From IMG/VR virus record IMGVR_UViG_3300018412_000010: 64,000 nucleotides of DNA; one strand, 5' to 3'. The notes under the pieces were generated by a model. That model searched no databases and was not told the origin of the DNA. It saw nothing but the letters and a program-made list of their open reading frames with translations. A program made the position numbers and the translations under genes. The DNA comes from a virus. Shown one piece after another: positions 40,935 through 43,776 of the stretch; positions within the stretch are counted from its first letter, which is position 1; every line of letters starts with the position of its first letter.

Positions 40935-41447
40935 CTAAAATAACTTTTCAATGGCTTGATAAATTATATAAACCATTGCTACAAATTGTATTCCATATTT
41001 TTTAATCAAAACACGGACGTCAAATTTAAAAATTTCTTCATTTGAACTAATTTCATGTTCAATATTTTGTATTTTCTCATCCATTTTAATTTCTAATTTT
41101 GATAAATTTTCTTGCGTCTCCTTTGTTTCGGAATTCAATTTATCTAAATTTAGATTTACTTTTTCTAATGTAAAAGAGAAAGAACGCATCAATTCATCTC
41201 TTCTATCGTTTTTCTTCTTTTCTAATACACTTTCTTCTTTATTAGTTTCCATCAATGTGGTTAATCTTGTTATAGCTTCGCTTATTGAATCAAGTTTTTC
41301 TATTTTCTCTCCCATAGACTCAATTTTAGTCTCGATTCTTGCGATTTTTTCGCCATGATCCTTCACATCTTTGCTAATATCTTCCATTATGCTTAAACCT
41401 ACGCTTTCATTATATTTTTCTCCATAATCTTCGTCTAAATTTTTCAT
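40935..41447 (-). CDS. coiled-coil protein with C-terminal TM (holin-like)
   Basis: Heptad-rich; hydrophobic C-terminus. Confidence 0.5.
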   Translation of the reverse strand: MKNLDEDYGEKYNESVGLSIMEDISKDVKDHGEKIARIETKIESMGEKIEKLDSISEAITRLTTLMETNKEESVLEKKKNDRRDELMRSFSFTLEKVNLNLDKLNSETKETQENLSKLEIKMDEKIQNIEHEISSNEEIFKFDVRVLIKKYGIQFVAMVYIIYQAIEKLF

Positions 41448-41469
41448 GGAGTTTTTTTCACTCCCTTCA

Positions 41470-42042
41470 TCATAATTTACTTTTTTTATTATACCGCATC
41501 ATTAACGCAACGCATAATATAGACATGCTTATAGCGCTTGATATTAAATTACCGATATAATTATTCATGTTAACACATAAAAAACTAATAAAATAAAATA
41601 AGATAAGTGTATTTATATATTTACTAACAAACCATTCCTTGGTTTTACCATTCATATTTTCTTTTGATATAATTGGAACTTTTTTAATTATGTATATTCC
41701 AAATACCATACTTATAAACAATAGAATGTTTACTTGACACATTATGTATTTAGAGATTATAGCCGTAGATAATATCAACGGAATACTAATACATAAACAT
41801 TTATCAAGAGTTGTAGAATGATATCCACCACTATATAACCGTAATACATTTAACACAATTAGAACAATTATCATTTGTGGTATGCATTCAAATATATATG
41901 CAAGACCAAAAAAGAATATGTTGGATATAATAAAAAAAGTAAGAAATATGACGTTATCTTCAAAATCATCATAATTTCTTACTTTAAATAGCTTTGTTTT
42001 AATTAATGCGTCAATAATCCGCATTGATATTTTTATAATCAT
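41470..42042 (-). CDS. agrB: AgrB-family peptide-processing membrane protease
   Basis: LRLYSGGYHSTTLDKC (R..GG.H...C catalytic His/Cys) in a polytopic membrane protein. Confidence 0.85.
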   Translation of the reverse strand: MIIKISMRIIDALIKTKLFKVRNYDDFEDNVIFLTFFIISNIFFFGLAYIFECIPQMIIVLIVLNVLRLYSGGYHSTTLDKCLCISIPLILSTAIISKYIMCQVNILLFISMVFGIYIIKKVPIISKENMNGKTKEWFVSKYINTLILFYFISFLCVNMNNYIGNLISSAISMSILCVALMMRYNKKSKL

Positions 42043-42223
42043 TAATTTGACCTTTCTTTATCCTAAAATTTGCAAAATTAAAAGGCTGATTTTATCTGCT
42101 AAATGACACCTTACAAACGGCTAAATTTCAACGTTTGTATATGCCAAATTGGACAAAATCAACCTTTTTAATTTTTTGATGGTATTTCACATCAATTTTG
42201 TAGATAATTATGTAAATTATCTA

Positions 42224-42274
42224 CTATTTTGTTCTAGTATCACCAAGAACCCAAAACTTTTCACAATTTCTCAC
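42224..42274 (-). CDS. 16-aa candidate AgrD-like peptide MRNCEKFWVLGDTRTK
   Basis: GGGAGGTG SD 8 nt before GTG; single Cys followed by aromatic residues; hairpin after the stop; upstream of agrB. Confidence 0.55.
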   Translation of the reverse strand: MRNCEKFWVLGDTRTK

Positions 42275-42752
42275 TATATCTACACCTCCCTTTATTTAAG
42301 TTTATTTTACAAAAATAAATAATTATGAATTCCATTATTTTAAATGGGATGCACATCATTAATTCTTTTGTTCCAAATTTTGTTGAAAATACATCTATAT
42401 TAAATAGTGTATTTAACGATATGGCTATAATAATTTCAATAACCATTACTAAGCATCCGACTTTTACGACGGACATAATTGCTTTTTTAAGTTTTATATT
42501 AAATACTACTCCAAGTAATAATCCAGAATATAATATGAATATTATTTGAAATACCAATCCAAGCCATGATATAAAAGTATATAACACGGCATTAATTATA
42601 GAAATACCAAAAAATGATAATATAAATTTCCTATAATTCTTTTCTAAGTTATTATCTAATATAAAATATGTTAAAATTATTAATCCATCAAATACTGATG
42701 AAAAAATAAACATTGTTAAAATATTGTAAATGATGTTCATACATACACACAC
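42261..42752 (-). CDS. polytopic membrane protein resembling an AgrC sensor domain without kinase
   Basis: About 5 TM helices; no H-box or HATPase; adjacent to peptide and agrB. Confidence 0.45.
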   Translation of the reverse strand: MCVCMNIIYNILTMFIFSSVFDGLIILTYFILDNNLEKNYRKFILSFFGISIINAVLYTFISWLGLVFQIIFILYSGLLLGVVFNIKLKKAIMSVVKVGCLVMVIEIIIAISLNTLFNIDVFSTKFGTKELMMCIPFKIMEFIIIYFCKINLNKGRCRYSEKL

Positions 42753-42757
42753 AATCC

Positions 42758-43126
42758 CTATCTTTTTATTCTTTTTTCTTCTATATTCATAATTTCCTCT
42801 AATGCTTCATACATAACATTTTCCCCAAAAAATCTTATCCGAGCATTATTTTTATCTTTTTTTGATATATATTTTACGTTTTTTGTAGCTTTTGCTTCAA
42901 ATAATAAGTTATAGCACATAAGTTCTGAATTTATTTGAATCAAATAACTAATTCCCAATTTTATTATAACACTATAATCTCCAAATCCATCGTTAATAAA
43001 GTGATAGTTAGATTCTTTAATGCCAAAGTGGTCAAAAAGTTTAATGAAATAATCTTCATTGTTCTTTATAGAATTTCTCTTTAACCATAGGGAAATTTGT
43101 AAGTCTTTGTAATTAAAATCTCCCAA
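42758..43126 (-). CDS. hypothetical protein (agr-like operon)
   Basis: ORF track; AAGGAG SD. Confidence 0.55.
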   Translation of the reverse strand: MGDFNYKDLQISLWLKRNSIKNNEDYFIKLFDHFGIKESNYHFINDGFGDYSVIIKLGISYLIQINSELMCYNLLFEAKATKNVKYISKKDKNNARIRFFGENVMYEALEEIMNIEEKRIKR

Positions 43127-43130
43127 GCTA

Positions 43131-43508
43131 TCACTCCTTCTTATCTAAAACAATCTTATTCGTAATATTACCGCATTTAATTAACTGGTCAAATTGACAC
43201 TCTGTTTGATTTAAATGCACGTTATTCAACTTAATCATATCATTAAGCATAGATTCTATTGTTGCTATTTTTTCTTCTTTCTCAACTATCGTTTTAATAA
43301 TTTTCCTATTATCTATAATGAAGTAAAACAGAATAAGTATTAAAAATAATACTATTAAACTGAACACTATAAAAAATCCAAACATATTTTGTTTAAAAAT
43401 AAGTTCTGCCCTGTTATAAAATTTTATAATATAATACAACAAGGATGATATTACAACAATAGAACCTATGATTGCTGGAATTGTCACGTATTTACCAAAT
43501 CTACCCAT
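43131..43508 (-). CDS. two-TM membrane protein with coiled coil (agr-like operon)
   Basis: Start re-called at MGRFGK after AAGGAG; promoter at 43549-43577. Confidence 0.6.
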   Translation of the reverse strand: MGRFGKYVTIPAIIGSIVVISSLLYYIIKFYNRAELIFKQNMFGFFIVFSLIVLFLILILFYFIIDNRKIIKTIVEKEEKIATIESMLNDMIKLNNVHLNQTECQFDQLIKCGNITNKIVLDKKE

Positions 43509-43776
43509 ATGACATATCTCCTTTCTATAATATTTCTTTGTATAATATATTATATCATAGATAAGGTATTTTGTCAAGTATTTTTAATAATTTATTTTAT
43601 TTTATTTTATATCCAGAGAATACTGCCGTAGAACCTTCTAATATATATATTAAATCACCAATATACATATATTCTCTTCCATCTTATGAAATTCCACTAT
43701 TAACCCATTCTACGGTTTCGCCGCCATTATCGGCTCCAGATAGTAACACATCCATAATTATACCTCCAATAAATTA

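What the first reader, a model, noticed from the sequence alone, without database searches (positions are those of the whole stretch)
41470..43577. Minimal agr-like cassette: AgrB, an unannotated 16-aa Cys peptide and a kinase-less sensor-like membrane protein
Seen: a consensus sigmaA promoter inside the late region drives two unknown genes, a ~5-TM protein, and an overlapping micro-ORF (42274-42224, strong SD, MRNCEKFWVLGDTRTK, followed by a hairpin). agrB follows, with intact His/Cys. No histidine kinase or AgrA lies in the window. Known: AgrB cyclises AgrD Cys-containing ring motifs into thiolactones, and agr genes have been reported in a C. difficile phage. Inference: a leaderless autoinducer precursor (possible ring CEKFW) with a stand-alone receptor or sink could serve phage-phage signalling or jam host quorum sensing.
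Basis: partly seen in the sequence, partly recalled or inferred. Interest (0 to 1): 0.75.

Follow-up and report, generated by a model that had tools for sequence, protein, structure and literature searches.

The report
Phage kinase-less agr-like micropeptide cassette
A large uncultured phage carries a self-promoted gene set (two small proteins, a membrane protein shaped like the sensor half of the quorum-sensing kinase AgrC, a real 16-codon peptide gene that no ORF or gene list shown by the tools includes, and the peptide-processing enzyme AgrB) that is conserved in eleven phage lineages, but the peptide lacks the conserved cysteine needed for a normal agr signal, so it is an agr-derived system that must work differently.

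Summary
Observation confirmed. On the minus strand lie a perfect extended -10 sigmaA promoter, orfA (2 TM plus helical tail), orfB (soluble), orfC (5 helices), a 16-codon ORF with a Shine-Dalgarno site over the orfC stop, an AU hairpin, and an AgrB with the catalytic His/Cys.

Main new result: orfA-orfB-orfC-micropeptide-AgrB recurs in 11 metagenomic lineages, several of them SPbeta-like by their neighbouring genes. Every lineage has a 13-28 codon ORF at that spot, with an aromatic/hydrophobic core, usually a Gly, and a basic tail. The closest lineages differ partly by synonymous changes, so the peptide gene is real.

Cys occurs in only 2 of 11 peptides, at different offsets, and there is no leader. 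The proposed CEKFW thiolactone is therefore not a family property.

orfC relatives are all stand-alone. Predicted-structure look-alikes are AgrC-type kinases, and a weak profile match lands on the AgrC sensor region.

No kinase or LytTR regulator was found.

Best reading: an agr-derived, kinase-free peptide module in which AgrB trims a leaderless peptide. Output and chemistry are unknown.

Earlier scan notes describe other phage modules with the order membrane protein, micropeptide, AgrB (often AgrB-HTH) on other DNA. I did not check them.

The parts
43549..43577 (-). sigmaA-type promoter, TTGACA-17-TATAAT with extended -10 TG
   Evidence: 12 of 12 consensus positions. Equivalent promoters scoring 9-12 of 12 lie before orfA in all 7 other lineages checked.
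43131..43508 (-). orfA, 125 aa: two N-terminal transmembrane helices and a cytoplasmic helical tail
   Evidence: Conserved as first gene of the cassette in 7 lineages (alignment A4). No family match in Pfam, PHROGs or NCBIfam. Atlas structure neighbours carry HisKA, but the Atlas model is poor (pTM 0.26) and no His is invariant.
42758..43126 (-). orfB, 122 aa, soluble alpha-beta-alpha protein of unknown family
   Evidence: Conserved second gene (A3). AF2 pLDDT 83.6. No clear fold match: Foldseek best E 0.34, VIA best Z 6.8.
42261..42740 (-). orfC, 159 aa, five-helix membrane protein, AgrC-sensor-like, without kinase domains
   Evidence: AF2 model with 5 helices, pLDDT 88.8. A profile search of 1.84 billion proteins gave 19 relatives, all 113-171 aa. 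Atlas structure neighbours are AgrC-type kinases. hhalign to the AgrC N-terminus scored 24-26 against controls of 17 or less.
42224..42274 (-). micro-ORF, 16 codons, GTG start, overlaps the orfC stop by 14 nt
   Evidence: SD GGGAGGTG upstream. Counterparts in all 11 lineages. Several codon differences between the window, L001 and L005 are synonymous. The strict motif occurs once in the six frames of the window.
42201..42223 (-). 9-bp AU-rich hairpin directly after the micro-ORF stop, at the place where relatives have an intrinsic terminator
   Evidence: RNAfold. 8 of the 10 lineages folded, among them 8 of the 9 other than the window, have a stem plus T-run terminator here. The window scan finds no canonical terminator.
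41470..42042 (-). agrB, 190 aa, AgrB-family membrane cysteine peptidase
   Evidence: Pfam PF04647, E 4e-17. His75 and Cys82 invariant, spacing 7. hhalign to phiCDHM1 AgrB: probability 95%, E 3e-8. An AgrB or AgrB N-terminus follows the micro-ORF in every lineage whose contig continues, 10 of 11.

Best explanation
This is an agr-derived, kinase-free peptide module carried as an autonomous, host-RNAP-transcribed unit by a group of large phages of Bacillota, several of them SPbeta-like.

Proposed mechanism:
- A strong sigmaA promoter drives orfA-orfB-orfC and a translationally coupled leaderless micropeptide.
- In most lineages a terminator right after the peptide gene lets only read-through reach agrB. 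That gives much peptide and little enzyme, as in RiPP operons.
- AgrB (His75/Cys82) is inferred to bind the charged tail of the micropeptide and cut it off after the aromatic/hydrophobic core. This is the same step AgrB performs on the follower of AgrD.
- The core has no conserved Cys or Ser, so the product is probably not a thiolactone. It would be a short hydrophobic peptide, either linear or closed through an amine.
- orfC, a stand-alone copy of the AgrC-type membrane sensor module, is inferred to bind or handle this peptide. orfA and orfB are inferred to be its partners in place of a kinase.

Shown: the anatomy, the conservation, the coding status of the micro-ORF, the AgrB catalytic residues, and the absence of kinase parts.

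Inferred: AgrB acts on the micropeptide, orfC senses it, and the biological output.
For: - The cassette order is conserved in 11 lineages, with orfC identity down to 18-33%.
- A micro-ORF with an SD is present at the same spot in all 11. Specificity test.
- In one lineage (L028) the peptide is in frame with orfC while keeping its own SD and ATG, which links the two physically.
- AgrB is a family member with an invariant His/Cys.
- Peptide layout is an aromatic/hydrophobic core followed by a charged tail. The phiCDHM1 AgrD read has the same core-and-tail order: an aromatic ring segment, then a Lys- and Pro-rich follower. Three lineages (L022, L025, L029) have similar Lys/Pro tails.
- A terminator lies between the peptide gene and agrB in 8 of the 10 lineages folded. 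In L001, L005 and L021 only 10-35 nt remain after it, too little for a separate promoter.
- orfC resembles the AgrC sensor.
- Consensus promoters are conserved.
- The cassette has lower GC (23-27%) than its flanks (31-43%), like a moron.
Against: - There is no biochemical evidence that AgrB touches this peptide.
- No nucleophile is conserved across all 11 peptides.
- Known AgrB substrates all have a membrane-targeting leader and a Cys or Ser.
- The orfC-AgrC likeness rests on predicted structures and on a profile score with HH probability of only 7-8%.
- No DNA-binding or other output component was recognised.
- orfA and orfB have no informative relatives.
- In most lineages agrB is separated from the peptide gene by a terminator, which could also mean independent regulation.
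- Only 64 kb of the phage was seen; its longest contig on record is 169 kb.
Confidence: 0.45

Rival explanations
1. The micropeptide is a detachable C-terminal piece or small subunit of orfC, not a substrate of AgrB. The phage AgrB and the kinase-less sensor act instead on the host agr system. AgrB would process or compete for host AgrD, and orfC would soak up host autoinducer or poison host AgrC dimers.
For: In L028 the peptide is read in frame as the C-terminus of orfC. The SD overlaps the orfC stop in most lineages, which implies tight coupling. A terminator separates the peptide gene from agrB. orfC has sensor-like shape without kinase.
Against: The link between the cassette and AgrB holds in every lineage whose contig continues past the micro-ORF, 10 of 11. 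This AgrB clade was found only beside the cassette. The peptide's core-plus-charged-tail layout resembles an AgrD core and follower. The host is unknown, so host agr could not be examined.
Confidence: 0.2
2. The cassette is a lysogen-advantage peptide toxin with immunity, comparable to sublancin of SPbeta. The leaderless aromatic and cationic peptide would be the antimicrobial, AgrB its maturation peptidase, and orfA-orfC export and immunity proteins.
For: The phage backbone is SPbeta-like, judged by neighbouring-gene Pfam families in several lineages. The unit has a strong constitutive-type promoter and low GC, like a moron. Peptides in L022, L025 and L029 are strongly cationic with an aromatic head. 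The precursor-then-attenuator layout is typical of bacteriocin operons (established knowledge).
Against: At 13-17 aa, with net charge of only about +2 in the window clade, the peptides are much shorter than known leaderless bacteriocins. No ABC transporter is present. orfC looks like a sensor module, not like known immunity proteins. PADLOC was not run.
Confidence: 0.12
3. The micro-ORF is a leader peptide of a transcription attenuator that controls agrB. Its translation would decide whether the downstream terminator forms.
For: A short ORF followed by an intrinsic terminator lies directly upstream of agrB in 8 of the 10 lineages folded.
Against: The amino-acid motif is conserved through synonymous changes. 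The stop-to-terminator distance varies from about 13 to 92 nt, and I saw no shared antiterminator in the single-sequence folds. The window itself lacks the terminator. One lineage has an in-frame fusion to orfC. Rfam gave no match.
Confidence: 0.08

Closest known systems
agr3 locus of Clostridioides difficile phage phiCDHM1 (AgrD-AgrB-AgrC; PMC3901668; HG531805)
   Same: Phage-borne agr genes placed next to the lysis genes. No response regulator. Lower GC than the rest of the phage. AgrB is homologous (hhalign probability 95%). The AgrD follower is basic, like the micropeptide tails.
   Different: phiCDHM1 has a full 453-aa AgrC kinase and an AgrD with a hydrophobic leader, a Ser ring position and a PxxP follower. 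Here the sensor has no kinase, the peptide has no leader and no conserved Cys or Ser, the gene order is sensor-peptide-AgrB, and two extra genes (orfA, orfB) belong to the unit. tblastn of the window AgrB against 50,697 phage records found nothing at E 1e-3.
Canonical agrBDCA of Staphylococcus aureus and agr-like loci of clostridia
   Same: AgrB-family peptidase with a His/Cys dyad at spacing 7. A small peptide gene lies next to it. The membrane module has AgrC sensor shape.
   Different: No AgrA, no DHp or ATPase domain, no AgrD leader, and the ring nucleophile is not conserved. In most lineages agrB is downstream of a terminator rather than first in the operon.
Homodetic cAIP of Ruminiclostridium cellulolyticum (PMC8251862)
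   Same: AgrB-dependent, aromatic-rich short core with no exocyclic N-terminal extension. The paper discusses a route in which a free amine resolves the AgrB acyl-enzyme directly.
   Different: The cAIP still needs an N-terminal Cys and a leader-bearing AgrD. Most peptides here have neither.
Phage modules 'polytopic membrane protein, coupled micropeptide, AgrB or AgrB-HTH fusion' noted earlier in this scan on other DNA (e1-4481805, e1-3600363, e1-5841596, e1-5869567, e1-5353137)
   Same: Same gene order, translational coupling, peptides of 13-21 residues that are often aromatic, no kinase, phage context.
   Different: Those notes describe an HTH fused to AgrB or a separate LytTR protein as output. 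Here AgrB is a plain 190-aa protein and no DNA-binding part was found, while orfA and orfB are added. These are unchecked AI notes, and I could not compare the sequences.

Membership tests
AgrB (Pfam PF04647, membrane cysteine peptidase) | Full-length match to the family profile above the curated cut-off | tested here: met
   62.5 bits against a cut-off of 23, E 4e-17, profile positions 29-183 of 185. hhalign to phiCDHM1 AgrB: probability 95%.
AgrB (Pfam PF04647, membrane cysteine peptidase) | Catalytic His and Cys seven residues apart (His77/Cys84 in S. aureus, from established knowledge) | tested here: met
   His75 and Cys82 are invariant in six cassette AgrBs, including distant ones. The partial L024 AgrB also carries the block.
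AgrB (Pfam PF04647, membrane cysteine peptidase) | Processes an adjacent AgrD-type precursor | not testable with these tools
   Only adjacency to a non-canonical micropeptide is shown. No canonical AgrD-like ORF lies on either side of agrB in 7 lineages.
AgrD (cyclic thiolactone/lactone autoinducer precursor) | N-terminal amphipathic leader of about 20 residues | tested here: not met
   Peptides are 13-28 aa. In the window an in-frame stop lies eight codons upstream, with no start codon in between.
AgrD (cyclic thiolactone/lactone autoinducer precursor) | Conserved Cys or Ser ring nucleophile, typically five residues before the cleavage site | tested here: not met
   Cys occurs only in the window and L005, at offsets -4 and -3 from the Trp. 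Ser occurs before the core only in L005 and L028. Six peptides have no Cys, Ser or Thr in or before the core.
AgrD (cyclic thiolactone/lactone autoinducer precursor) | Charged follower recognised by AgrB, usually containing Pro | tested here: inconclusive
   A charged, mostly basic tail is present in all 11. Pro occurs only in L022, L025 and L029. The phiCDHM1 AgrD follower is likewise Lys- and Pro-rich.
AgrC (HPK10 peptide-sensing histidine kinase) | Polytopic N-terminal sensor module | tested here: inconclusive
   Atlas structure neighbours: a 442-aa HATPase_c_5/SPOB_a kinase cluster with TM 0.73 over 148 residues, and an 'AgrC fragment' cluster at 0.64. hhalign score 24-26, P 0.004-0.005, collinear with AgrC residues 13-116, against controls of 17 or less. 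HH probability is only 7-8%. No solved AgrC sensor was found to compare with.
AgrC (HPK10 peptide-sensing histidine kinase) | DHp domain with phospho-accepting His, plus HATPase_c_5 domain | tested here: not met
   orfC is 159 aa. All 19 relatives in 1.84 billion proteins are 113-171 aa. orfA and orfB show no profile match to the AgrC DHp or ATPase parts, and orfA has no invariant His.
Complete agr circuit | LytTR response regulator (AgrA) | tested here: not met
   None among 30 window ORFs of 214-567 aa. None in the 82-kb relative G001, which is about 49% complete. The rest of the phage genome was not available.

The most novel reading that the evidence does not exclude
An AgrB-family enzyme has been re-tooled in these phages to make Cys-independent, amide-closed mini-peptides from leaderless precursors. 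After AgrB forms the acyl-enzyme at the end of the aromatic core, an amine resolves it.
- In 8 lineages the amine would be the Lys side chain that sits about five residues upstream.
- In the 3 lineages whose peptide starts directly with the core, it would be the free N-terminus.

The product would be a five-residue-type lactam analogue of an autoinducing peptide. It would be read by a kinase-free AgrC sensor module working through orfA and orfB, making a phosphorylation-free phage communication or host-interference channel.
Probability: 0.15. Interest if true: 0.85.

Novelty: new variant of a known kind. Interest (0 to 1): 0.68.

Why it matters
Phage peptide communication is known mainly from arbitrium, and phage agr genes from one C. 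difficile phage with canonical parts.

Here a conserved, strongly promoted phage unit keeps the agr peptidase and the sensor shape. It has dropped the kinase, the regulator, the peptide leader and the ring cysteine.

If AgrB processes this peptide, the known chemistry and substrate range of the AgrB family would widen. It would also point to a signalling route without phosphorylation.

The work adds a conserved 13-28 codon gene family that is missing from the gene calls of all the metagenomic contigs inspected. It gives concrete constructs for testing.

Tried and rejected
**No hit in public records**
- Megablast of the cassette and tblastn of AgrB against 50,697 phage records: none.
- tblastn of AgrB against plasmids: none.
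- AgrB alignment against 185,579 species genomes: none.
- Viral contigs gave only the contig already known.
- A degenerate DNA pattern for the peptide motif in viral contigs gave 10 chance hits inside long ORFs.

**No family or fold assignment**
- Pfam, PHROGs and NCBIfam gave nothing significant for orfA, orfB or orfC.
- Foldseek and VIA-align against the PDB found no clear fold match for orfC or orfB. No solved AgrB or AgrC relative was found by sequence.
- Rfam: no RNA family in the cassette.

**No kinase or regulator**
- LytTR, HATPase_c_5 and HATPase_c searches of the 82-kb relative were empty. One sub-threshold hit was a DUF5048 protein, not a kinase.

**Readings rejected**
- Programmed frameshift fusing orfC and the peptide: the relative frame differs between lineages.
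- Fusion of the peptide to orfC in P0018, P0009 and P0011: the apparent likeness is an overlapping other frame. Only L028 is truly in frame.
- orfA as DHp and orfB as ATPase domain of a split AgrC: no profile support.

**Not run or not possible**
- No whole genome is held for the window.
Full report
**What is there**

Read on the minus strand, the region starts with a perfect sigmaA promoter: TTGACA, 17 nt, TATAAT, with an extended -10 TG, at 43577..43549. The following features come next:

| Feature | Coordinates | Notes |
|---|---|---|
| orfA | 43508..43131 | 125 aa; the 148-aa reading starts inside the -35 box |
| orfB | 43126..42758 | 122 aa |
| orfC | 42740..42261 | 159 aa |
| micro-ORF | 42274..42224 | 16 codons, GTG start, GGGAGGTG 10 nt upstream, overlaps the orfC stop; an in-frame TAA eight codons upstream excludes a longer form |
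| hairpin | 42223..42201 | 9-bp AU stem |
| agrB | 42042..41470 | 190 aa |

agrB matches Pfam AgrB over its whole length, 62.5 bits against a cut-off of 23.

**Context**

The window belongs to a large uncultured phage. Pfam hits on mid-size ORFs include:
- a split Pol III alpha with a LAGLIDADG insert, DnaB, DnaG and NrdD/NrdG;
- RNA ligase, M16 peptidase, a GluRS-like synthetase and a NeuB/CMP-transferase pathway;
- an M23 lysin. A holin was called on the matching contig L002.

Neighbouring genes in related contigs, and Sequestin on the window's own contig, carry SPbeta-type families (YomU, YomV, YomN, XepA, Sequestin). The DnaB protein is at most about 28% identical to that of any deposited phage. 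No whole genome is held for the window. The same phage sequence, 100% identical over the cassette, occurs in three other assemblies. The cassette has 23-27% GC against 31-43% in the flanks.

**The cassette is a conserved unit**

- Word-based searches of 5.8 billion proteins found only three AgrB clusters of this type and three orfC clusters.
- A profile search of 1.84 billion representatives with orfC found 19 relatives. All are 113-171 aa and none is fused to anything.
- I fetched the contexts of eight orfC-family relatives (P0005, P0007-P0012, P0018, P0023) plus the window itself, L001 and its 58%-identical AgrB relative. All show orfA-like, orfB-like and orfC genes where the contig reaches upstream, then a short gap.
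- Wherever the contig continues past the gap, an AgrB or the N-terminus of one follows. That is 10 of 11 lineages.
- Six AgrBs, down to 23% identity, keep His75 and Cys82. This is the spacing of the S. aureus catalytic dyad (established knowledge).
- Consensus-like sigmaA promoters precede orfA in the seven other lineages checked, three of them 12/12.

**The micro-ORF is a real gene**

In each of the 11 lineages an ORF of 13-28 codons starts at or just before or after the orfC stop. Each has a GGAGG- or GAGGTG-type SD at 8-10 nt. The loci are:
- the window
- L001:5872-5916
- L005:6438-6491
- L018:1505-1558 (TTG start; stop at 1556-1558)
- L021:3441-3488
- L024:825-866
- L027:1101-1142
- L022:4450-4515
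- L025:3447-3533
- L028:3220-3270
- L029:627-674

The products share a short or absent N-terminal stretch, then an aromatic/hydrophobic core of three to five residues, usually a Gly, and a charged tail ending in Lys or Arg. In the three closest lineages the shared part reads K-x-W-(V/I)-(L/F)-G-D-T-R-(T/I)-(K/R). Between the window and L001 four of the differing codons are synonymous (Lys, Leu, Gly, Thr). The sequence after the stop is not alignable.

A loose motif hit 9 of the 11 expected sites and one other site among 79 SD-preceded small ORFs in 243 kb. The strict motif occurs once in the six frames of the window.

The relative frame of orfC and the micro-ORF differs between lineages, so this is not a frameshift product. 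In L028 the two are in frame, yet the internal SD and ATG are kept.

**It is not an AgrD in the family sense**

There is no leader. Cys is present only in the window peptide, four residues before the Trp, and in L005, three residues before. L028 has a Ser before the core. L001, L018, L021, L024, L027 and L022 have no Cys, Ser or Thr in or before the core. The proposed CEKFW thiolactone is thus not conserved even among the nearest relatives. No canonical AgrD-like ORF lies beside agrB in seven lineages.

The layout does recall an AgrD stripped of its leader. The phiCDHM1 AgrD read from HG531805 has an aromatic ring segment followed by a Lys- and Pro-rich follower. The L022, L025 and L029 peptides begin directly with an aromatic core followed by Lys/Pro-rich tails.

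**Operon logic**

An intrinsic terminator (stem plus T-run) lies between the micro-ORF and agrB in 8 of the 10 lineages folded. In L001, L005 and L021 only 10-35 nt remain before the agrB start, too few for a separate promoter. agrB is therefore most simply expressed by read-through. This precursor-then-attenuator-then-enzyme order is typical of ribosomal peptide operons (established knowledge).

The distance from stop to terminator varies from about 13 to 92 nt, and the window has only an AU hairpin. Both argue against a leader-peptide attenuator.

**orfC**

The AF2 model from 20 sequences is confident (pLDDT 88.8, pTM 0.81) and shows five helices. The positive-inside rule, applied by eye, places the basic C-terminus, and hence the start of the peptide in the L028 fusion, in the cytoplasm. 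AgrB's active site is reported to lie there too (established knowledge).

PDB fold searches were uninformative. No solved AgrC sensor relative turned up that could have tested the idea.

The ESM Atlas structure search listed the following:
- first, a 442-aa sensor kinase cluster (HATPase_c_5 100%, SPOB_a 83%), TM 0.73 over 148 residues;
- second, a 311-aa cluster in which 17% of members carry SPOB_a, TM 0.78;
- fifth, a cluster named 'AgrC fragment', TM 0.64.

A planned one-to-one hhalign of the orfC alignment against eight agr3-type AgrC sequences gave scores of 24.2 (N-terminal 205 residues) and 25.9 (full length). The match spans 102-103 collinear columns, orfC 12-116 on AgrC 13-116. The controls scored lower:

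| Comparison | hhalign score |
|---|---|
| orfC vs AgrC N-terminal 205 residues | 24.2 |
| orfC vs full-length AgrC | 25.9 |
| orfC vs reversed AgrC | 16.8-17.1 |
| orfC vs 30 column-shuffled AgrC alignments (maximum) | 15.2 |
| orfC vs cassette AgrB | 11.5 |
| orfC vs orfA | 10.3 |

HH probability is only 7-8%. I treat 'AgrC-sensor-like' as a moderately supported lead, not as membership.

**orfA and orfB**

orfA has two TM helices and a helical tail. Its Atlas neighbours carry HisKA, but the Atlas model is poor and no His is invariant. orfB is a small alpha-beta-alpha protein without a convincing fold match. Neither matches the AgrC DHp or ATPase parts. No LytTR or kinase domain was found in 30 window ORFs or in the 82-kb relative.

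**Mechanism I commit to (confidence 0.45)**

This is an agr-derived, kinase-free peptide module.
1. The host RNA polymerase transcribes orfA-orfB-orfC-peptide at a high level.
2. Read-through supplies AgrB.
3. AgrB removes the charged tail of the leaderless peptide at the end of its aromatic core.
4. The product acts with orfC, the stand-alone sensor module, and orfA and orfB serve as its partners.

Rivals:
- The peptide is a small subunit of orfC, while AgrB and orfC interfere with host agr (0.2).
- The cassette is a bacteriocin-with-immunity moron (0.12).
- The micro-ORF is a leader-peptide attenuator (0.08).

The most novel reading not excluded is amine-mediated ring closure. Eight peptides have a Lys about five residues before the presumed cut, and three start directly with the core. 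A Lys side chain or the free N-terminus could therefore take the place of Cys. A direct aminolysis route for AgrB was discussed, but not favoured, for clostridial cAIPs (PMC8251862).

**Comparison with what is known**

The nearest described case is the agr3 locus of phage phiCDHM1, which also lies beside the lysis genes and also lacks a regulator. It has a canonical AgrD and a full kinase (PMC3901668).

Two literature searches found no description of a kinase-less sensor plus leaderless Cys-free peptide plus AgrB unit. A third, on AgrB in SPbeta phages, gave only unrelated titles.

Earlier notes of this scan describe phage modules on other DNA with the same order: membrane protein, coupled micropeptide, AgrB. 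Those often have an HTH fused to AgrB. I could not check them. If they hold, this cassette is a further variant of a recurring phage theme, distinguished by a plain AgrB, two extra genes and mostly Cys-free peptides.

Noticed in passing
window 40935-41447 (-): The gene right after agrB encodes a 170-aa coiled-coil protein with a C-terminal hydrophobic segment and weak XhlA, holin and hemolysin-type hits (E 0.02-0.06). It is not conserved at this position in the other lineages. A Peptidase_G2-type 659-aa fibre or spike gene follows.
   Followed up: partly
L028:3271-3463: In this lineage the gap between the peptide gene and agrB has no terminator. It holds a GC-richer structured stretch with a tRNA T-arm-like GGTTCAATCCC motif. 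ARAGORN finds no tRNA.
   Followed up: partly
L018:2256-3033: About 780 nt without a called gene lie downstream of agrB in the SRR22971179 lineage. Only short unconvincing ORFs are present, so a non-coding RNA is possible.
   Followed up: no
L022:1989-2342 and L028:1630-1998: A PemK/MazF-type toxin gene lies just upstream of the cassette in two distant lineages.
   Followed up: no
window 2885-6540 (-): The DNA polymerase III alpha gene is split into separate ORFs (NTPase domain; finger plus HhH), with a LAGLIDADG endonuclease ORF between them.
   Followed up: no
window 7794-8537 (-) and 9311-11014 (-): The phage encodes a Bax1-I family membrane protein (E 6e-24) and a class I Glu/Gln-type aminoacyl-tRNA synthetase homologue (E 1e-63).
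   Followed up: no
window 41300-43700: GC drops to 23-27% across the cassette, against 31-43% in the neighbouring fibre and lysis genes. This matches what was reported for the agr genes of phiCDHM1 and suggests separate acquisition.
   Followed up: partly
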